From Escherichia coli (GTDB lineage Bacteria; Pseudomonadota; Gammaproteobacteria; Enterobacterales; Enterobacteriaceae), in the NCBI RefSeq assembly GCF_003334335.1, contig NZ_QOWQ01000002.1: DNA of 64,000 nt. One strand, written 5' to 3'. The notes below the pieces were generated by a model. The model made no database searches. It saw only the letters and a list, made by a program, of their open reading frames with translations, and was not told the DNA's origin. Each line of letters starts with the position of its first letter. Positions within the stretch are counted from its first letter, which is position 1. Made by a program: the position numbers and the translations under genes. Shown in pieces: positions 16,107 to 50,532 of the stretch.

Positions 16107-17048
16107 ATGCGCGAAAAGGATTATGTCGTAATTATAGGTTCGGCGAATATTGATGTCGCCGGATATTCACATGAATCATTAAATTATGCGGATTCAAATC
16201 CAGGTAAAATAAAATTTACGCCTGGTGGAGTAGGGCGCAATATTGCACAAAACCTGGCGTTGCTGGGTAACAAAGCCTGGCTACTGAGCGCCGTAGGCAG
16301 TGATTTTTATGGTCAATCGCTGCTAACGCAAACCAATCAATCTGGCGTTTATGTCGATAAATGCCTGATTGTGCCGGGAGAAAATACGTCGAGTTATTTA
16401 TCATTACTCGATAATACCGGTGAAATGCTGGTTGCTATAAATGACATGAATATTAGCAACGCTATTACAGCTGAATATCTCGCACAGCACGGTGAATTTA
16501 TTCAGAGGGCAAAGGTCATTGTCGCGGACTGTAATATCAGTGAAGAGGCACTGGCATGGATTCTGGATAATGCCGCCAACGTACCCGTATTTGTCGATCC
16601 GGTTTCGGCATGGAAATGTGTCAAAGTGCGCGACCGTCTAAATCAGATCCACACTCTCAAGCCAAACCGCCTTGAAGCGGAAACCCTGAGTGGGATTGCG
16701 CTGTCAGGGCGTGAAGATGTGGCAAAAGTTGCTGCCTGGTTCCATCAACATGGCCTGAACCGACTGGTATTGAGCATGGGCGGCGACGGCGTTTATTACA
16801 GCGATATCAGCGGTGAAAGTGGCTGGTCTGCGCCGATCAAAACCAATGTTATTAATGTTACCGGAGCGGGCGATGCCATGATGGCGGGACTTGCTTCGTG
16901 TTGGGTAGACGGAATGCCGTTTGCCGAATCTGTTCGTTTCGCACAGGGATGTTCGTCAATGGCGCTCTCCTGTGAATACACCAATAACCCCGATTTATCG
17001 ATTGCCAACGTTATATCGTTAGTGGAGAACGCAGAATGTCTGAATTAA
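16107..17048 (+). CDS. psuK: Pseudouridine kinase PsuK (YeiC), PfkB family
   Basis: 313 aa PfkB-type kinase (GAGDAMMAG); synteny with psuG. Confidence 0.9.
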   Translation: MREKDYVVIIGSANIDVAGYSHESLNYADSNPGKIKFTPGGVGRNIAQNLALLGNKAWLLSAVGSDFYGQSLLTQTNQSGVYVDKCLIVPGENTSSYLSLLDNTGEMLVAINDMNISNAITAEYLAQHGEFIQRAKVIVADCNISEEALAWILDNAANVPVFVDPVSAWKCVKVRDRLNQIHTLKPNRLEAETLSGIALSGREDVAKVAAWFHQHGLNRLVLSMGGDGVYYSDISGESGWSAPIKTNVINVTGAGDAMMAGLASCWVDGMPFAESVRFAQGCSSMALSCEYTNNPDLSIANVISLVENAECLN

Positions 17049-17974
17049 AAATTTCCCCTGAATTATTACAAATTTCCCCGGAAGTGCAGGACGCTTTAAA
17101 AAACAAAAAACCGGTTGTGGCGCTGGAATCGACCATTATTTCTCACGGGATGCCGTTCCCACAAAATGCCCAGACCGCAATTGAAGTTGAAGAAACTATT
17201 CGTAAACAGGGCGCTGTACCTGCCACGATCGCCATTATTGGCGGCGTGATGAAAGTGGGGTTAAGCAAAGAAGAAATTGAATTACTGGGTCGTGAAGGGC
17301 ATAACGTGACCAAAGTTAGTCGTCGCGATTTACCTTTTGTTGTTGCCGCCGGAAAAAATGGCGCAACCACTGTGGCTTCAACGATGATTATTGCGGCGCT
17401 TGCCGGAATTAAAGTATTTGCCACCGGGGGAATTGGTGGTGTGCATCGCGGGGCGGAACATACCTTCGATATTTCTGCCGATTTGCAAGAACTGGCAAAT
17501 ACTAATGTCACCGTTGTTTGTGCCGGGGCGAAATCTATTCTCGATTTAGGATTAACCACTGAGTATTTAGAAACCTTCGGTGTGCCGTTAATTGGCTATC
17601 AGACTAAAGCGCTGCCTGCGTTTTTCTGCCGCACCAGCCCGTTTGACGTCAGCATTCGTCTCGACAGCGCCAGCGAAATTGCCCGTGCAATGGCGGTGAA
17701 ATGGCAAAGCGGTCTGAACGGTGGCCTCGTGGTAGCGAACCCGATCCCGGAACAGTTTGCTATGCCGGAACACACTATCAATGCGGCGATCGATCAGGCG
17801 GTAGCTGAAGCTGAAGCTCAGGGAGTCATTGGTAAAGAAAGTACGCCATTCCTGCTGGCGCGCGTTGCTGAACTGACCGGCGGTGACAGCCTGAAATCCA
17901 ACATCCAGCTGGTGTTCAACAACGCCATTCTGGCGAGCGAAATTGCCAAAGAATATCAGCGTCTCGCGGGTTAA
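17036..17974 (+). CDS. psuG: Pseudouridine-5'-phosphate glycosidase PsuG (YeiN)
   Basis: 312 aa; overlaps psuK stop; synteny. Confidence 0.9.
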   Translation: MSELKISPELLQISPEVQDALKNKKPVVALESTIISHGMPFPQNAQTAIEVEETIRKQGAVPATIAIIGGVMKVGLSKEEIELLGREGHNVTKVSRRDLPFVVAAGKNGATTVASTMIIAALAGIKVFATGGIGGVHRGAEHTFDISADLQELANTNVTVVCAGAKSILDLGLTTEYLETFGVPLIGYQTKALPAFFCRTSPFDVSIRLDSASEIARAMAVKWQSGLNGGLVVANPIPEQFAMPEHTINAAIDQAVAEAEAQGVIGKESTPFLLARVAELTGGDSLKSNIQLVFNNAILASEIAKEYQRLAG

Positions 17975-18067
17975 TTTCTGACGGGCAGAAAGCCGTCGCC
18001 CGTACTCATCAAGCATACCAAAACCTGGCGCTGACGCCGGGTTTACCGGCATGAAGGGAAAATCATT

Positions 18068-19317
18068 ATGGATATAATGAGAAGTGTTGTGGGGATGGTG
18101 GTGTTACTGGCAATAGCATTTCTGTTGTCAGTGAATAAAAAGAGCATCAGTTTGCGCACGGTTGGAGCCGCACTGCTGCTGCAAATCGCTATTGGTGGCA
18201 TCATGCTCTACTTCCCACCGGGAAAATGGGCAGTAGAACAGGCGGCATTAGGCGTTCATAAAGTGATGTCTTACAGTGATGCCGGTAGCGCCTTCATTTT
18301 TGGTTCGCTGGTTGGGCCGAAAATGGATGTCCTGTTTGACGGTGCGGGTTTTATCTTCGCCTTTCGCGTACTTCCGGCGATTATTTTCGTTACTGCGCTC
18401 ATCAGTCTGCTGTACTACATTGGCGTGATGGGGCTGCTGATTCGCATCCTTGGCAGCATTTTCCAGAAAGCCCTCAACATCAGCAAAATCGAATCTTTTG
18501 TTGCGGTTACTACTATTTTCCTCGGGCAAAATGAGATCCCGGCGATCGTTAAACCGTTTATCGATCGCATGAATCGCAACGAGTTGTTTACCGCAATTTG
18601 TAGCGGGATGGCGTCCATTGCTGGTTCGATGATGATTGGTTATGCCGGAATGGGCGTACCAATTGACTACCTGTTAGCGGCATCGCTGATGGCGATCCCT
18701 GGCGGGATTTTGTTTGCACGTATTCTTAGCCCGGCAACCGAGCCTTCGCAGGTCACATTTGAAAATCTGTCGTTCAGCGAAACGCCGCCAAAAAGCTTTA
18801 TCGAAGCGGCGGCGAGCGGTGCGATGACCGGGCTAAAAATCGCCGCGGTGTGGCGACGGTGGTAATGGCGTTTGTCGCAATTATTGCGCTGATCAACGGC
18901 ATTATCGGCGGAATTGGCGGCTGGTTTGGTTTCGCCAATGCCTCTCTGGAAAGTATTTTTGGCTATGTGCTGGCACCGCTGGCGTGGATCATGGGTGTGG
19001 ACTGGAGTGATGCCAATCTTGCGGGTAGCCTGATTGGGCAGAAACTGGCGATTAACGAATTCGTCGCTTACCTGAGTTTCTCCCCATACCTGCAAACGGG
19101 CGGCACGCTGGAAGTGAAAACCATTGCGATTATCTCCTTTGCGCTTTGTGGTTTTGCTAACTTTGGTTCTATCGGTGTTGTCGTTGGCGCATTTTCGGCT
19201 ATTTCGCCAAAACGCGCGCCGGAAATCGCCCAGCTTGGTTTACGGGCGCTGGCAGCAGCAACGCTTTCCAACCTGATGAGTGCGACTATTGCCGGGTTCT
19301 TTATTGGTCTGGCGTAA
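18068..19317 (+). pseudogene. psuT: Nucleoside transporter PsuT (YeiM, CNT family), frameshifted into 265-aa and 155-aa pieces
   Basis: Track ORFs 18068..18865 and 18850..19317 are consecutive frames of one CNT transporter; alignment with intact paralog nupX (21257..22507) shows one missing G in gccgcggtgtgg vs gccgcaggtgtgg near 18847. Confidence 0.65.
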
Positions 19318-19387: not shown

Positions 19388-20047
19388 TTACTGCATCATC
19401 CCGGAGAATTTATTCTCCGGGTCCATCTCCAGCGCCAGTCCTGACAACTGCTTTCTGTTTTTAATGAGATACCCTTTCTTGCTTTTAATTAATAAACCGT
19501 CGTGAATGAACTGCGCGAGAACATATAAAAGATGTCGATAAGAAACGCCTAAATACTCTGCCGCTTGCGTATGCTTTTCGTGATAAAGATCACCTTCCTG
19601 CGAGAGTAATATAAATGCTGCCAGGCGATTCACTAACGGAAATGATTGATTCTGAGTTAAAGAAACAATATTACGATAATTTTTATGACTTAAGGTGACG
19701 CAGAGTTTTCGTAAAAATAGCGTGTCGTTTAATAACAGCGGACGGTAATGTTTCATAGGGAGCGCAAGGCACCAACACTCTTCAATAGCCTGCACCGCAC
19801 GCGGTTCATGGTCTTTATCGATTAACTCAATCTCGCCAATAAAACAGGGGGCGGCAAAGAAATCGATCAGCGACACGCGACCATTAGCTAGCGTGGCGTA
19901 AAGCCTGGCGCGGCCTCGCGTCAGGTAAAACAGCCAGGACGGCTGTTGCCCTTCCTGCACAATGTAGTCACGCGCTAAAAAATGAAACAGCCGCGTATCG
20001 GCTGAAACATCCGTTAAAAAGCAATCCTTAAACGCGGATTCACTCAT
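19388..20047 (-). CDS. yeiL: CRP/FNR-family transcriptional regulator YeiL
   Basis: ORF 19388..20086; likely start at internal Met (~219 aa); cNMP-binding fold plus C-terminal HTH. Confidence 0.85.
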
Positions 20048-20215
20048 CAATTGCTGCTTAAGATCATTATTGTGGATTTCTTTCACGATGTTTATCCGCT
20101 ATGAGATTTCTCATATTTAGCATACGTACGCTGTTGTTAAGATTCAATCATCGGCCCGGTCGAATTTTCTTTGCTGTAGAAAAAATAACGCAACTGGAAA
20201 CAGAGGAAATAAACA

Positions 20216-21256: not shown

Positions 21257-22507
21257 ATGGATGTCATGAGAAGTGTTCTGGGAATGGTGGTATTGCTGAC
21301 GATTGCGTTTTTACTGTCAGTAAACAAGAAGAAGATCAGCCTGCGTACCGTTGGCGCGGCGTTAGTGTTACAGGTCGTGATTGGCGGCATTATGCTTTGG
21401 TTACCGCCAGGGCGTTGGGTCGCTGAAAAAGTCGCTTTTGGCGTGCATAAAGTGATGGCGTACAGCGACGCGGGTAGCGCATTTATCTTCGGTTCTCTGG
21501 TCGGACCGAAAATGGATACCTTATTTGATGGTGCAGGATTTATCTTTGGTTTCAGGGTGTTACCGGCAATTATCTTCGTCACCGCGCTGGTGAGTATTCT
21601 CTACTACATCGGTGTGATGGGGATTTTAATTCGAATTCTCGGCGGTATCTTCCAGAAAGCATTAAATATCAGCAAGATCGAGTCATTCGTCGCGGTCACC
21701 ACCATTTTCCTCGGGCAAAACGAAATTCCGGCAATCGTCAAACCCTTTATCGATCGTCTGAATCGCAATGAATTATTTACAGCGATTTGTAGTGGCATGG
21801 CCTCGATTGCTGGTTCGACAATGATTGGTTACGCCGCACTGGGCGTGCCTGTGGAATATCTGCTGGCGGCATCATTAATGGCGATCCCTGGCGGGATCTT
21901 GTTTGCCCGCCTGTTAAGCCCGGCAACGGAATCTTCGCAGGTTTCCTTTAATAACCTCTCTTTCACCGAAACACCGCCAAAAAGCATTATTGAAGCCGCT
22001 GCGACAGGGGCAATGACCGGGCTGAAAATCGCCGCAGGTGTGGCAACAGTGGTGATGGCATTTGTTGCAATAATTGCGTTGATTAACGGTATTATCGGCG
22101 GCGTTGGTGGCTGGTTTGGTTTTGAACATGCCTCGCTGGAGTCCATTTTAGGTTACCTGCTGGCTCCACTGGCGTGGGTGATGGGTGTGGACTGGAGTGA
22201 TGCGAATCTTGCCGGGAGTTTGATTGGACAGAAACTGGCAATAAATGAATTTGTCGCTTATCTCAATTTCTCACCCTATCTGCAAACGGCTGGCACTCTC
22301 GATGCTAAAACTGTGGCGATTATTTCCTTCGCGTTGTGCGGTTTCGCTAACTTTGGTTCTATCGGGGTGGTGGTGGGGGCGTTTTCTGCGGTTGCGCCAC
22401 ACCGTGCGCCGGAAATCGCCCAGCTTGGTTTACGGGCGCTGGCGGCGGCGACGCTTTCCAACTTGATGAGTGCGACCATTGCCGGGTTCTTTATTGGTTT
22501 AGCTTGA
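21257..22507 (+). CDS. nupX: Nucleoside permease NupX (CNT family)
   Basis: 416 aa; intact paralog of psuT. Confidence 0.92.
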   Translation: MDVMRSVLGMVVLLTIAFLLSVNKKKISLRTVGAALVLQVVIGGIMLWLPPGRWVAEKVAFGVHKVMAYSDAGSAFIFGSLVGPKMDTLFDGAGFIFGFRVLPAIIFVTALVSILYYIGVMGILIRILGGIFQKALNISKIESFVAVTTIFLGQNEIPAIVKPFIDRLNRNELFTAICSGMASIAGSTMIGYAALGVPVEYLLAASLMAIPGGILFARLLSPATESSQVSFNNLSFTETPPKSIIEAAATGAMTGLKIAAGVATVVMAFVAIIALINGIIGGVGGWFGFEHASLESILGYLLAPLAWVMGVDWSDANLAGSLIGQKLAINEFVAYLNFSPYLQTAGTLDAKTVAIISFALCGFANFGSIGVVVGAFSAVAPHRAPEIAQLGLRALAAATLSNLMSATIAGFFIGLA

Positions 22508-43687: not shown

Positions 43688-44814
<1,127 letters not shown>

Positions 44815-45016
44815 TTAATTCGTAAAACGTGCTACCGATCACATTAAGAAATCAGCGCTTATTTTTTCGCTCCCCGGCATTACGCAATGCGCAGCGAACT
44901 CAGGCATACATCAAGCATAGAGAGGGATTGCAGTTTGCAGCAATCCCTCTTTGCAGACCTTTAATCCGCTGACCATAGGCGCTAACATAGCGCCTCATTT
45001 TTTTGCGGGTGATGAT

Positions 45017-45964
45017 ATGCGTGTGTTACTGGCACCGATGGAGGGAGTGCTTGACTCTCTGGTGCGTGAATTGCTGACCGAAGTTAACGACTACGATCTG
45101 TGCATCACCGAGTTTGTCCGCGTGGTGGATCAACTGCTGCCGGTAAAAGTCTTTCATCGCATTTGCCCTGAGCTACAAAACGCCAGCCGGACACCATCTG
45201 GTACGCTGGTGCGCGTGCAGTTGTTAGGTCAGTTCCCACAATGGCTGGCAGAGAACGCCGCCCGTGCGGTGGAGTTAGGTTCCTGGGGCGTGGATCTCAA
45301 TTGCGGCTGCCCGTCGAAAACGGTTAACGGTAGCGGCGGCGGGGCGACGTTACTCAAAGATCCTGAACTCATCTACCAGGGTGCAAAAGCGATGCGTGAA
45401 GCTGTACCGGCGCATTTGCCCGTCAGCGTGAAAGTGCGTCTGGGCTGGGACAGCGGTGAGAAGAAATTTGAAATCGCCGATGCGGTTCAACAGGCTGGCG
45501 CTACGGAGCTGGTGGTGCATGGGCGGACGAAAGAGCAGGGTTACCGCGCGGAGCATATTGACTGGCAGGCGATTGGCGATATTCGCCAGCGGCTGAATAT
45601 TCCGGTGATTGCCAACGGTGAAATCTGGGACTGGCAGAGCGCGCAACAATGCATGGCGATCAGCGGCTGCGACGCAGTGATGATTGGTCGCGGGGCGCTC
45701 AATATTCCCAACCTGAGCCGGGTGGTAAAATATAACGAACCGCGAATGCCGTGGCCGGAGGTGGTTGCTTTGCTGCAAAAATATACCCGTCTGGAAAAGC
45801 AGGGCGATACCGGGTTATATCACGTTGCGCGGATTAAACAGTGGTTGAGTTATTTGCGTAAAGAATACGATGAAGCAACGGAATTATTTCAGCATGTTCG
45901 GGTGTTGAATAATTCCCCTGATATTGCAAGGGCTATTCAGGCAATTGATATCGAGAAACTCTAA
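45017..45964 (+). CDS. dusC: tRNA-dihydrouridine synthase C DusC
   Basis: ORF 44951..45964; likely start [11 protein letters not shown] (~315 aa); Dus family. Confidence 0.9.
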
Positions 45965-46336
45965 AAAACCATAGTGATGTTTTTTGACAATGTGTTAGCT
46001 CTTTATCAATAGGCCGCACGGTTGTTTGGTGGCGTCAAAATTGCCGAGGCGTTCCCTGAAGGCCGGGGCAGCCCACATGGATGTGGGCTGAGGGCGCGTT
46101 TTACAGGGATGTTACCTCGCGCCCGACCCGGTAGCCGTAAGGGATAAGTCGAGGGCACCGCGCAGCGGCGATTTTGTTCGCCAGAGCCCGGGGGTGCAGG
46201 GGGCGGCGGCGATTGGCCGCCCCCTGCGCGCTCCTTGCGCCAGTGATTATATGAAGCAATGCACATGACAGGAGCGCAACAGGATGAGAGACTGAAATAT
46301 TCTCGTTATTTTCGGACCTGATGACATTAATTAATT

Positions 46337-46420
46337 TTAAAATATCATCTTAAATACGCCAGTCACCACCAGTAGCCCAATCAGGAAAATAATCAATACA
46401 GCCCAGAGTATAATTTTCAT
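46337..46420 (-). CDS. yohP: Small hydrophobic protein YohP (27 aa)
   Basis: ATG at 46418-46420 (minus); hand translation MKIILWAVLIIFLIGLLVVTGVFKMIF; below ORF-track size cutoff. Confidence 0.6.
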   Translation of the reverse strand: MKIILWAVLIIFLIGLLVVTGVFKMIF

Positions 46421-46643
46421 TGGCGTTCCTTTATTTGTGAGTGCTGAATAAGTATAGGAAAAAACGAAGCCCTTTGCCGTTATCCATAAACGATTAAGAT
46501 AAATCGGAAGATATCATTCACTTAGTGTATATTTTTCTGGATATGTCGTTTTATTGCCACTGATGTATTGCCACGCGAAACTAAAAAATATATCGCAACA
46601 CACGGTAATCTCCGCGCACCTTTTCTTACCTGATTATTCCCCC

Positions 46644-48080
46644 ATGAATCGTGATTCCTTTTATCCAGCCATCGCCTGTTTTCCGCTGTTACTGATGCTG
46701 GCCGGGTGTGCGCCTATGCATGAAACCCGCCAGGCGTTAAGCCAGCAAACGCCCGCTGCACAAGTTGACACCGCATTACCCACGGCGCTGAAAAATGGTT
46801 GGCCAGACAGCCAATGGTGGCTGGAGTATCACGATAATCAACTCACTTCCTTAATTAACAATGCACTACAGAACGCACCGGATATGCAGGTGGCTGAACA
46901 GCGCATTCAGCTAGCTGAAGCCCTGGCGAAGGCAGTTGCCACTCAGGATGGTCCGCAGATCGACTTTTCGGCGGATATGGAGCGGCAAAAAATGTCGGCA
47001 GAAGGCTTAATGGGGCCGTTTGCTCTGAACGATCCGGCCGCAGGTACGACCGGCCCGTGGTACACCAACGGTACTTTTGGCTTAACGGCGGGCTGGCATC
47101 TCGATATCTGGGGAAAGAATCGGGCGGAGGTTACTGCCCGCCTGGGTACGGTTAAAGCACGGGCGGCGGAACGCGAGCAAACCCGCCAATTGCTGGCTGG
47201 CAGCGTAGCCCGCCTGTACTGGGAGTGGCAAACCCAGGCGGCGTTAAACACGGTCTTGCAGCAAATAGAAAAAGAGCAGAACACCATTATCGCGACCGAT
47301 CGCCAGCTATATCAGAACGGGATTACTTCTTCAGTTGAAGGTGTGGAAACCGATATTAATGCCAGCAAAACCCGGCAGCAGCTCAACGATGTCGCGGGGA
47401 AAATGAAAATTATTGAGGCACGGTTAAGCGCACTTACAAATAACCAGACAAAGTCATTGAAGCTTAAACCGGTCGCGTTGCCGAAAGTGGCAAGCCAGCT
47501 TCCTGATGAACTGGGGTACTCCTTACTGGCCCGGCGGGCAGATTTGCAGGCGGCGCACTGGTACGTTGAGTCATCGCTAAGCACCATTGATGCGGCAAAA
47601 GCGGCATTTTATCCTGACATCAACCTGATGGCCTTCCTGCAACAGGATGCGTTGCACTTAAGCGATCTGTTCCGTCATTCCGCGCAGCAAATGGGCGTTA
47701 CGGCAGGCCTGACGCTACCCATTTTCGATAGTGGTCGTCTTAACGCCAATCTCGATATCGCAAAAGCCGAAAGCAACTTGTCTATCGCCAGCTACAACAA
47801 AGCGGTGGTTGAAGCGGTGAATGACGTGGCGCGGGCAGCCAGTCAGGTTCAGACACTGGCGGAGAAAAACCAGCATCAGGCGCAAATTGAGCGCGATGCC
47901 TTGCGTGTGGTAGGTCTTGCGCAGGCGCGCTTTAACGCGGGCATCATTGCTGGTTCCCGCGTCAGCGAAGCCAGAATCCCCGCGCTGCGTGAGCGGGCCA
48001 ATGGCCTGTTATTGCAAGGGCAGTGGCTGGATGCCTCCATTCAACTCACTGGTGCGTTGGGCGGGGGTTACAAACGCTGA
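46644..48080 (+). CDS. mdtQ: NodT/OprM-family outer membrane efflux lipoprotein MdtQ, apparently intact here
   Basis: ORF 46554..48080 uninterrupted; likely start MNRDSFYPAIACFPLLLMLAGCAP (lipobox LAGC), ~478 aa. Confidence 0.85.
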   Translation: MNRDSFYPAIACFPLLLMLAGCAPMHETRQALSQQTPAAQVDTALPTALKNGWPDSQWWLEYHDNQLTSLINNALQNAPDMQVAEQRIQLAEALAKAVATQDGPQIDFSADMERQKMSAEGLMGPFALNDPAAGTTGPWYTNGTFGLTAGWHLDIWGKNRAEVTARLGTVKARAAEREQTRQLLAGSVARLYWEWQTQAALNTVLQQIEKEQNTIIATDRQLYQNGITSSVEGVETDINASKTRQQLNDVAGKMKIIEARLSALTNNQTKSLKLKPVALPKVASQLPDELGYSLLARRADLQAAHWYVESSLSTIDAAKAAFYPDINLMAFLQQDALHLSDLFRHSAQQMGVTAGLTLPIFDSGRLNANLDIAKAESNLSIASYNKAVVEAVNDVARAASQVQTLAEKNQHQAQIERDALRVVGLAQARFNAGIIAGSRVSEARIPALRERANGLLLQGQWLDASIQLTGALGGGYKR

Positions 48081-48132
48081 TGATATGCGCCTTCTATACT
48101 TAACGTTTATTCAGCGTTAAGTGGAGAACTCG

Positions 48133-48894
48133 ATGGCACAGGTTGCGATTATTACCGCCTCCGATTCGGGGATCGGCAAAGAGTGCGCGTTATTACTGGC
48201 GCAGCAGGGGTTTGATATTGGTATTACCTGGCACTCAGATGAAGAAGGGGCAAAAGATACCGCGCGTGAGGTAGTTAGCCACGGCGTACGTGCGGAGATC
48301 GTGCAGCTGGATCTCGGCAATCTACCAGAAGGGGCACTGGCGCTGGAGAAACTCATTCAACGGCTGGGGCGCATTGATGTGCTGGTGAATAATGCGGGTG
48401 CAATGACCAAAGCGCCGTTTCTTGATATGGCTTTTGATGAGTGGCGCAAGATTTTTACCGTTGATGTCGATGGTGCATTCTTATGCTCGCAAATTGCGGC
48501 TCGTCAGATGGTGAAACAAGGGCAGGGCGGTCGCATCATCAACATTACGTCGGTACATGAACATACGCCGCTGCCGGATGCCAGCGCCTACACAGCCGCT
48601 AAACATGCGCTCGGTGGGTTAACCAAAGCGATGGCGCTGGAGCTGGTCAGGCATAAGATTTTGGTGAACGCAGTCGCGCCTGGGGCGATCGCCACGCCAA
48701 TGAATGGCATGGATGACAGCGACGTGAAGCCCGACGCGGAGCCTTCGATTCCCTTGCGGCGTTTTGGCGCAACGCATGAGATTGCCAGCCTGGTGGTGTG
48801 GCTTTGTTCGGAGGGCGCAAATTACACCACCGGGCAGTCGTTGATAGTGGATGGCGGCTTTATGTTGGCGAATCCACAGTTCAACCCAGAATAG
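48133..48894 (+). CDS. yohF: SDR-family oxidoreductase YohF
   Basis: Likely start MAQVAIITASDSGIGKE; TGxxxGxG and YxxxK SDR motifs. Confidence 0.88.
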   Translation: MAQVAIITASDSGIGKECALLLAQQGFDIGITWHSDEEGAKDTAREVVSHGVRAEIVQLDLGNLPEGALALEKLIQRLGRIDVLVNNAGAMTKAPFLDMAFDEWRKIFTVDVDGAFLCSQIAARQMVKQGQGGRIINITSVHEHTPLPDASAYTAAKHALGGLTKAMALELVRHKILVNAVAPGAIATPMNGMDDSDVKPDAEPSIPLRRFGATHEIASLVVWLCSEGANYTTGQSLIVDGGFMLANPQFNPE

Positions 48895-48934
48895 CGCAGT
48901 GAGGTGCGTGGATATTTCATTGGGTAATATTTTG

Positions 48935-49015
48935 GTCGGCATGAAAAGACGCACAAGCGTCGTATCAGGCATGGTACTCCGGATGTCGGATGCGGCGCGA
49001 ACGCCTTATCCAGGG
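48935..49015. repeat. REP-like palindromic elements
   Basis: gtcggcatgaaaagacgcacaagcgtcgtatcaggcatg and ccggatgtcggatgcggcgcgaacgccttatccagg. Confidence 0.55.
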
Positions 49016-49023
49016 CAATGGTT

Positions 49024-49602
49024 TTACGCCTGATGATCCGGCTTTTTCTTCCCGCGTCGTTTCAGCCACCAGCGCACGCCCACCACCAGAACCACGACCA
49101 GAATCAACCAGACCCAGTGCTTCAAATGCTGGTCGAGATTGTGCAACCACGGCGCAATCACCTGACCACCAGCGTAACCAATAGTGGTAAAAATCAACGC
49201 CCAGGCAAATGCGCCGAGAATATTCAGCGGCAGAAAGATTTTCGGCGGCAGCTGGCTGGCACCAATCAGCGTCGGGCCAATCACCCGAAAGCCATACATA
49301 AAGCGCGTACCAATGACAAACAGATACGGATGGCGTTGGATAAGTTTCTGCGCCCGCTCAATTTTATCCTGATGTTTCGAGAAACGGCGTAACAGCTTGC
49401 CGCCAAACCGCCGCCCGCACAGATAGAGCACCTGGTCGCCAATCATGCCGCCAAGCGCCACAGAAAGTACCACCAGCGGGAACTTTAATAGCCCCTGATG
49501 CGCCGCAACGCCTCCCAGCAAAGTCACGGTTTCACCTTCCGCCAGGCTACCGATCACCAGCGCGGCATAACCATATTGTGAGATAAGTGTATTGAGATCC
49601 AT
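49024..49602 (-). CDS. yohD: DedA-family inner membrane protein YohD
   Basis: ORF 49024..49638; likely start MDLNTLISQYGYAAL (~192 aa). Confidence 0.88.
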   Translation of the reverse strand: MDLNTLISQYGYAALVIGSLAEGETVTLLGGVAAHQGLLKFPLVVLSVALGGMIGDQVLYLCGRRFGGKLLRRFSKHQDKIERAQKLIQRHPYLFVIGTRFMYGFRVIGPTLIGASQLPPKIFLPLNILGAFAWALIFTTIGYAGGQVIAPWLHNLDQHLKHWVWLILVVVLVVGVRWWLKRRGKKKPDHQA

Positions 49603-49771
49603 AGGCCAGTCTGTCTCCCTTTGGTTGCCAGTAAGCATACACCCTGTGAATCATTCACGCTGAAAAAGGACGTTCATCAGACAGTGAAAATTACATGGGC
49701 GAACAAAAAATAATCACAAGCTGACTTATACTTGAACTGTCAGGTTCATGAACTCACAACAAGGGGGCGGT

Positions 49772-50359
49772 ATGAGCCATGTCTGGGGACTGTTTTCCCA
49801 TCCCGATCGTGAAATGCAGGTGATTAATCGCGAAAACGAAACGATTTCTCACCATTACACCCACCACGTTTTGCTGATGGCGGCGATTCCGGTGATTTGC
49901 GCCTTCATTGGCACTACACAGATTGGCTGGAATTTTGGCGATGGCACTATCCTGAAGTTATCCTGGTTTACCGGACTGGCGCTGGCTGTCTTGTTTTACG
50001 GCGTTATGCTGGCTGGGGTCGCGGTGATGGGGCGGGTCATCTGGTGGATGGCGCGTAATTATCCGCAGCGTCCGTCACTTGCGCACTGCATGGTCTTCGC
50101 GGGCTACGTTGCAACTCCGCTGTTTTTAAGCGGTCTGGTGGCGCTTTATCCACTGGTCTGGTTGTGTGCGCTGGTCGGCACGGTGGCGCTGTTTTACACC
50201 GGCTACCTGCTTTACCTTGGTATTCCGAGCTTCCTGAATATCAACAAAGAGGAAGGCCTTAGCTTCTCTAGTTCGACGCTGGCGATTGGCGTGCTGGTAC
50301 TGGAAGTGCTGCTCGCCCTAACCGTTATACTATGGGGCTACGGTTATCGTTTGTTCTAG
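49772..50359 (+). CDS. yohC: Yip1-family inner membrane protein YohC
   Basis: ORF 49748..50359; likely start MSHVWGLFSHP (~195 aa). Confidence 0.87.
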   Translation: MSHVWGLFSHPDREMQVINRENETISHHYTHHVLLMAAIPVICAFIGTTQIGWNFGDGTILKLSWFTGLALAVLFYGVMLAGVAVMGRVIWWMARNYPQRPSLAHCMVFAGYVATPLFLSGLVALYPLVWLCALVGTVALFYTGYLLYLGIPSFLNINKEEGLSFSSSTLAIGVLVLEVLLALTVILWGYGYRLF

Positions 50360-50532
50360 AAAGTTCTTTGACGTTGCATTGCTGGCGTAAATGTCAGCAA
50401 TGCAGCATTTCCTCACGATTCTCCTTTGACGATCGCACTTTTTGCTCGTTATGATGGCGTCGCTAGCCTCAGTAAATCCTTACTCCGGCGGTGCGCAACC
50501 CGTGCGCGTGAACCACTATCTGAATGCTCATC

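What the first reader, a model, noticed from the sequence alone, without database searches (positions are those of the whole stretch)
18068..19317. psuT (yeiM) nucleoside transporter disrupted by a 1-bp deletion
The gene is split into two consecutive-frame ORFs (265 aa and 155 aa). Aligning the break with the intact paralog nupX in the same window shows psuT has gccgcggtgtgg where nupX has gccgcaggtgtgg, a single missing G near 18847 that leads to a stop at 18863-18865. As far as I recall, psuT is a full-length 416-aa gene in K-12. This is either pseudogenisation of the transporter in the psuKGT pseudouridine locus or a homopolymer sequencing error.
Basis: seen in the sequence. Interest (0 to 1): 0.5.

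Follow-up and report, generated by a model that had tools for sequence, protein, structure and literature searches.

The report
Frameshifted psuT nucleoside transporter pseudogene
One missing base has broken the putative pseudouridine transporter gene psuT in this E. coli strain; the mutation is genuine and rare, but it is an ordinary gene inactivation.

Summary
psuT (yeiM) is split into a 265-aa ORF (18068-18865) and a 155-aa ORF (18850-19317). The cause is a 1-bp deletion between window 18846 and 18847.

One detail is wrong. Intact psuT orthologs have a T at that position (nt 780, codon 260 GCT) and nupX has an A. The missing base is therefore not a G and is not in a homopolymer run.

The deletion is very unlikely to be an assembly error:
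- The rest of the window is clean. All 52 other complete K-12 genes are open, and mlrA is cut only by a prophage.
- The first 25 kb differs from two complete genomes by one SNP plus this deletion.
- The exact 265-aa frameshift product, on identical DNA, occurs in independent Logan assemblies of several SRA runs.

The allele is rare. It is absent from 5,426 complete RefSeq E. coli genomes, JGI metagenomes and GTDB representatives.

The product keeps 260 native residues plus VWRRW. It ends inside TM6 and lacks HP2, TM7 and TM8, which form half of the substrate site, so loss of function is expected. psuK, psuG and nupX are intact.

The stop overlaps the native Met267 codon (TAATG), so a C-terminal fragment might be re-initiated. 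That is speculative.

Verdict: a real, recent, lineage-restricted pseudogene of low interest.

The parts
18068..18865 (+). psuT 5' fragment ORF. It encodes 260 native residues plus the out-of-frame tail VWRRW and a stop (265 aa).
   Evidence: ORF list. It matches TIGR00804 profile positions 1-249 of 401 at 293 bits, below the 442-bit cut-off. The exact product is found in Logan assemblies.
18846..18847 (+). Deletion junction. One T is missing here (psuT nt 780, third base of codon Ala260, GCT).
   Evidence: Alignments to MG1655, EC416 and PEC1009. The alignment to nupX shows an A in that column.
18863..18865 (+). Premature stop codon TAA. It overlaps the next ATG by one base (TAATG).
   Evidence: Sequence read directly.
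18865..19317 (+). psuT 3' fragment. It runs from native Met267 to Ala416 in the original frame (150 aa). The mechanical ORF starts at GTG 18850 (155 aa).
   Evidence: It matches TIGR00804 positions 256-401 at 209.5 bits, below the cut-off. Gene callers report the 150-aa form on 40 contigs.
16107..17048 (+). psuK (pseudouridine kinase). Intact and identical to K-12.
17036..17974 (+). psuG (pseudouridine-5'-phosphate glycosidase). Intact, with 1 aa difference from K-12.
19388..20086 (-). yeiL, convergent with psuT. psuT is therefore the last gene of its operon and the frameshift has no downstream polar target.
21257..22507 (+). nupX, the intact paralog of psuT. It is 416 aa, 88% aa and about 79% nt identical to psuT, and 100% identical to K-12 nupX.

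Best explanation
This is a genuine, recent, lineage-restricted loss-of-function mutation. One T (nt 780) has been deleted from psuT, the last gene of the psuK-psuG-psuT pseudouridine operon.

Translation leaves the native frame after Ala260, adds VWRRW and stops at 18863-18865. The 265-aa product ends two residues after the position equivalent to vcCNT Leu259, which lies inside scaffold helix TM6. It lacks the rest of TM6 and all of HP2, TM7 and TM8. HP2 and TM7 form the ribose-binding half of the substrate site. The product should therefore be unable to transport (inferred).

The kinase, the glycosidase and the paralog nupX are untouched. The expected phenotype is only the loss of PsuT-mediated nucleoside uptake, presumed to be pseudouridine uptake.
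For: Shown directly:
- The ORF split and the stop.
- The single-T deletion relative to MG1655, EC416 and PEC1009.
- Window 1-25000 differs from EC416 and PEC1009 only by one SNP and this deletion.
- Against MG1655 there are two indels in 55.7 kb. The other one is K-12's own mdtQ frameshift.
- All 52 other complete K-12 genes in the window are open.
- The exact 265-aa product P0016 is on 9 Logan contigs. L004 (11,178 bp) and L006 are 100% identical to the window, deletion included. L005 carries the deletion plus 3 SNPs.
- The intact protein scores 517.6 bits against TIGR00804 (cut-off 442). The two fragments score 293 and 209.5 bits.
- In the alignment to vcCNT (3TIJ), PsuT I258 pairs with vcCNT L259 and PsuT F363 with vcCNT F366.

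From the literature (PMC4139061):
- L259 lies in TM6.
- The binding site is formed by HP1, HP2, TM4 and TM7.
- F366 is the base of the binding bowl.

No X XXY YYZ slippery heptamer lies before the stop.
Against: - No read pileup could be inspected, so read support is indirect, through assemblies made from reads.
- The Logan runs could all be re-sequencings of one strain.
- Loss of function is inferred from structure, not measured.
- PsuT's substrate has never been shown directly. One study detected no uridine, cytidine, xanthosine or gemcitabine transport by PsuT (PMC11241209).
- The TAATG stop/start overlap leaves room for a C-terminal fragment to be made.
Confidence: 0.88

Rival explanations
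1. Sequencing or assembly artefact. The genome really has an intact 416-aa psuT, and the missing base is a consensus error.
For: - The allele is absent from all 5,426 complete RefSeq E. coli genomes.
- It is absent from JGI metagenomes and GTDB representative genomes.
- A singleton frameshift in an otherwise identical region is a typical signature of an assembly error.
Against: - The same deletion is in Logan contigs assembled independently from reads of several SRA runs, with otherwise identical DNA.
- The missing T is not in a homopolymer.
- There is no other spurious indel in about 60 kb, and no other broken gene.
Confidence: 0.04
2. Split but still functional transporter. Ribosomes that terminate at TAA re-initiate at the overlapping ATG (TAATG), which is native Met267. 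The cell would then make fragments 1-260 and 267-416, and these would assemble into a working or partly working CNT.
For: - The stop (18863-18865) and the ATG (18865-18867) overlap by one base, and the ATG is in the native frame.
- There is SD-like pairing of -6.4 kcal/mol immediately upstream.
- Only six native residues (261-266) would be lost.
- The downstream sequence has no further lesions.
Against: - The cut lies inside scaffold helix TM6, next to the gate residue equivalent to vcCNT L259 (PMC4139061). A charged VWRRW tail is added there.
- The SD-like element abuts the start codon with spacing of about 0, which is poor.
- The intact downstream sequence is equally explained by the mutation being recent.
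- No case of a functional split CNT is known to me.
Confidence: 0.06
3. Programmed -1 ribosomal frameshifting restores full-length PsuT from the mutant mRNA.
For: Only that the two ORFs overlap in adjacent frames over 16 nt.
Against: - There is no slippery heptamer between the deletion and the stop.
- Intact orthologs are a single ORF in thousands of genomes, so no recoding has evolved at this site.
Confidence: 0.01

Closest known systems
E. coli K-12 psuT (yeiM; WP_000353878.1, UniProt P33024), putative pseudouridine transporter of the psuKGT operon
   Same: - Same locus and gene order: fruBKA, psuK, psuG, psuT, yeiL (convergent), rihB, nupX.
- The window's 1,250 nt match the 1,251-nt K-12 gene with no mismatch; the missing T is the only difference.
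- The product is identical for residues 1-260, and the sequence is identical in the native frame from residue 261 onward.
   Different: One T is missing at nt 780. The reading frame breaks after Ala260 and a stop follows 5 codons later.
Bacterial concentrative nucleoside transporters of known structure: vcCNT (PDB 3TIJ) and CNTNW (PDB 5L26)
   Same: The intact PsuT aligns end to end with both (E-values 1e-125 to 1e-131). It meets the TIGR00804 cut-off.
   Different: The window's product stops within TM6. HP2, TM7 and TM8 are no longer on the same polypeptide as HP1 and TM4.
Other disrupted psuT alleles in E. coli assemblies (IS1 insertions in MSB1_9I and 600029; deletions and indels in L007-L016)
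   Same: They affect the same gene and leave the neighbouring genes intact.
   Different: The lesions differ: IS1 insertions, deletions of 16, 11, about 77 and about 40 bp, and other 1-bp indels. They occur on different sequence backgrounds. None of them is the deletion of T780.

Membership tests
psuT ortholog (E. coli psuKGT locus) | Same chromosomal position and near-identical DNA to K-12 psuT | tested here: met
   The window's 1,250 nt match the 1,251-nt K-12 gene with no mismatch and one gap. psuK and psuG flank it upstream and yeiL flanks it downstream.
CNT / NupC family transporter (NCBIfam TIGR00804; Pfam PF01773, PF07670, PF07662) | One polypeptide that covers the whole profile above the curated cut-off (442 bits) | tested here: not met
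   The intact ortholog scores 517.6 bits. The window's N fragment scores 293.3 bits (profile positions 1-249) and the C fragment 209.5 bits (positions 256-401).
CNT / NupC family transporter (NCBIfam TIGR00804; Pfam PF01773, PF07670, PF07662) | Substrate site built from HP1 and TM4 plus HP2 and TM7 of the same chain, with TM6 as scaffold and gate | tested here: not met
   The break comes after residue 260, two residues past the equivalent of vcCNT L259 in TM6. The equivalent of F366 (PsuT F363) lies downstream of the stop (PMC4139061).
CNT / NupC family transporter (NCBIfam TIGR00804; Pfam PF01773, PF07670, PF07662) | Cation-coupled nucleoside transport activity (pseudouridine for PsuT) | not testable with these tools
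   Even for intact PsuT the substrate is inferred only from the operon context. No uridine, cytidine or xanthosine transport was detected (PMC11241209).
Frameshift pseudogene | Reading frame disrupted relative to intact orthologs | tested here: met
Frameshift pseudogene | The lesion is present in the organism and not only in one assembly | tested here: met
   The exact product and the same DNA are on 9 Logan contigs from several SRA runs. Caveat: the pileups themselves were not seen, and the runs may not be independent isolates.
Frameshift pseudogene | No recoding signal that would restore the frame | tested here: met
   There is no X XXY YYZ heptamer before the stop.
Homopolymer-length sequencing error | The indel lies within a run of identical bases | tested here: not met
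   The missing T sits between C and G in the wild-type sequence gccgcTggtg.

The most novel reading that the evidence does not exclude
Two readings are not excluded.
1. The deletion creates a TAATG stop/start overlap exactly at native Met267. The strain might therefore make a two-piece CNT that still assembles and transports.
2. Loss of PsuT might be adaptive, for example by blocking entry of a toxic nucleoside analogue. The same T780 deletion seen on a second haplotype (L005, 3 SNPs) would then reflect recurrence rather than shared descent.
Probability: 0.06. Interest if true: 0.35.

Novelty: already known. Interest (0 to 1): 0.1.

Why it matters
It matters little beyond strain bookkeeping. 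The strain and its close relatives probably cannot import nucleoside through PsuT, while they keep the kinase and glycosidase that break down pseudouridine.

The allele could serve as a natural psuT knockout to test whether PsuT really is the pseudouridine importer. That has never been shown directly. It could also serve as a lineage marker. Annotators should label the locus as a pseudogene and not as two 'domain-containing' proteins.

Tried and rejected
- Homopolymer-error idea: rejected, because the missing base is a lone T.
- Indel-noisy assembly: rejected. There are only two indels against MG1655 in 55.7 kb, and one of them is K-12's own mdtQ lesion. All other genes are open.
- Search for the allele in complete RefSeq E. 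coli genomes, JGI metagenome contigs and GTDB representative genomes: no carrier was found. The source genome could therefore not be named.
- Programmed frameshifting: rejected, because there is no slippery site.
- Recurrent psuT loss as a sign of selection: not claimed. The other disrupted alleles were found because they share the 150-aa C-terminal fragment, so the set is biased by how it was collected. Any gene will show such alleles in a collection of this size.
- One attempt to read the NupC elevator-mechanism preprint failed for lack of a server slot. The eLife vcCNT paper was enough for the structural mapping.

Full report
**Observation**

The window carries two consecutive ORFs in adjacent frames. 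One runs 18068-18865 (265 aa) and the other 18850-19317 (155 aa). The TAA stop is at 18863-18865. Aligned with the intact paralog nupX (21257-22507), psuT has a single one-column gap: gccgc-ggtgtgg against gccgcAggtgtgg. The observed split is therefore real. One detail is wrong. The base missing relative to nupX is an A. Relative to true psuT orthologs it is a T: MG1655 reads atcgccgcTggtgtgg, and EC416 and PEC1009 agree. The T is psuT nt 780, the third base of codon Ala260 (GCT). It lies between a C and a G, so this is not a homopolymer site.

**Identity of the locus**

The region is collinear with E. coli K-12 MG1655: fruBKA, psuK, psuG, psuT, yeiL (convergent), rihB, nupX. K-12 psuT is 1251 nt and encodes 416 aa (WP_000353878.1). 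The intact protein scores 517.6 bits against NCBIfam TIGR00804, the NupC/NupG family nucleoside CNT transporter model, whose cut-off is 442 bits. It aligns end to end with the solved bacterial CNTs CNTNW (5L26, E = 9e-132) and vcCNT (3TIJ, E = 2e-125).

**Real mutation or artefact?**

Three lines of evidence bear on this.

1. Assembly quality.
   - Against MG1655 the window has 57 substitutions and two indels over 55.7 kb.
   - The second indel, at 46791, is K-12's own annotated mdtQ frameshift. The window has the intact form there.
   - I mapped 54 K-12 genes onto the window. psuT is the only one with internal stops, and mlrA is cut by a prophage.
   - Window 1-25000 differs from the complete genomes EC416 and PEC1009 by one SNP (1475) and this deletion only.
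2. Independent sightings.
   - The exact 265-aa frameshift product is in the 15-billion-protein collection, from Logan assemblies of public read sets only.
   - It lies on 9 contigs. One is a 26.7-kb contig seen in 5 samples (SRR30938087 and others). There are also short contigs from SRR32903638 and SRR27434586.
   - L004 (11,178 bp) and L006 (1,343 bp) are 100% identical to the window, deletion included. L005 carries the deletion plus three SNPs.
3. Sequence context. A lone T is not the usual site of an indel error.

Together these make an assembly artefact very unlikely; I put it at about 4%. I could not inspect read pileups, and the runs may be repeats of one strain.

**Rarity**

None of the 5,426 complete RefSeq E. 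coli genomes carries the allele. The best matches to the 101-nt junction query are 99.0% identical, meaning one gap. The best matches to the whole gene span 1,251 bases in the record against 1,250 in the query. An exact 37-nt junction pattern found nothing in JGI metagenome contigs or in the GTDB representative genomes. The allele is therefore confined to a small lineage, and I could not name the source genome.

**Consequence for the protein**

Translation keeps residues 1-260, adds VWRRW and stops.
- In the alignment to vcCNT, PsuT I258 pairs with vcCNT L259, and PsuT F363 pairs with vcCNT F366.
- According to PMC4139061, L259 lies in TM6, the static scaffold helix that also forms part of the intracellular gate.
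- The same paper states that the nucleoside site is formed by HP1, HP2, TM4 and TM7, that ribose contacts come mainly from HP2 and TM7b, and that F366 is the base of the binding bowl.
- The truncated product therefore ends inside TM6 and lacks HP2, TM7 and TM8.
- It matches TIGR00804 profile positions 1-249 of 401 at 293 bits, below the cut-off.

Loss of transport is thus inferred on structural grounds. It has not been measured.

psuT is the last gene of its operon and is followed by the convergent yeiL, so no polar effect is expected. psuK, psuG and nupX are intact. The absence of any further lesion in psuT points to a recent event.

**What PsuT does**

Its role as a pseudouridine transporter rests on operon association. 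In one study, PsuT expressed from a plasmid showed no detectable uridine, cytidine, xanthosine or gemcitabine transport (PMC11241209). Metabolic-engineering work treats it as a pseudouridine re-uptake route and reports modest titre gains after deleting it (PMC13090712). The phenotype of this natural knockout is therefore probably subtle.

**Alternatives considered**

- Programmed -1 frameshifting. There is no X XXY YYZ heptamer between the deletion and the stop, and intact orthologs are a single ORF. I rejected this.
- Split transporter.
   - In favour: the stop and the next ATG overlap (TAATG); that ATG is native Met267 in the native frame; an SD-like element pairs with the anti-SD at -6.4 kcal/mol.
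   - Against: the SD-like element abuts the start codon; a C-terminal fragment covering residues 267-416 might be made by termination and re-initiation, but the cut is inside TM6 and adds two arginines there, so function is doubtful. I put this at about 6%.

**Other disrupted psuT alleles**

Other assemblies carry different lesions:
- IS1 insertions (hits H1 and H2);
- deletions of 16, 11, about 77 and about 40 bp;
- other 1-bp indels.

Some of these come from poor assemblies. L012, for example, has every gene in the region broken. The set was found because its members share the 150-aa C-terminal fragment, so it is biased. I make no claim of selection.

**Verdict**

This is a real, recent, lineage-restricted frameshift pseudogene of a known gene. 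It is ordinary biology. Its only modest uses are as a natural knockout for testing PsuT's substrate and as a lineage marker.

Noticed in passing
window 46644-48080 (indel at 46791): mdtQ (yohG) is an intact ORF here. K-12 MG1655 lacks an A at this position and its mdtQ is annotated as frameshifted. In this window, psuT is the broken gene and mdtQ is the open one, which is the reverse of K-12.
   Followed up: partly
window 59847-63930 (junction near 60536): A lambdoid prophage end is inserted into the 5' end of mlrA (yehV). Homology to K-12 stops at 60536. It is followed by a tyrosine integrase (60569-61855, minus strand), an excisionase-like ORF (61889-62143, minus strand) and phage ORFs. Strain G1/2 has the same arrangement, annotated as integrase, xisR and phage proteins. 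The N-terminus of mlrA is replaced.
   Followed up: partly
window ~53300-60536: Mosaic ancestry. Window 1-53.3 kb differs from MG1655 at about a dozen positions. From inside bglX to yehW, identity drops to about 96-98%, which is consistent with a recombination tract. No complete RefSeq genome matches window 44000-64000 better than 99.2%.
   Followed up: no
window ~19215-19252; L004, L005 and L006 all end at window 19245: All Logan contigs that carry the deletion stop at the same point. That point lies inside a 38-nt stretch that is identical in psuT and nupX. This is probably a k-mer graph break at the paralog repeat. The long identical 3' stretches could also permit gene conversion between the paralogs.
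   Followed up: partly
L005 (SRR27434586), equivalent to window 17903-19245: The same T780 deletion occurs on a haplotype with three SNPs (window 17938, 17956 and 18226). This could be a diversified lineage, an independent recurrence or a chimeric contig from a mixed sample.
   Followed up: partly
L007-L016 (psuT loci of other E. coli assemblies): Many different psuT lesions lie just upstream of Met267: deletions of 16, 11, about 77 and about 40 bp, and several 1-bp indels. Neighbouring genes are mostly intact. L012 is an assembly in which every gene is frameshifted. The set is biased by how it was found, so it is not evidence of selection.
   Followed up: partly
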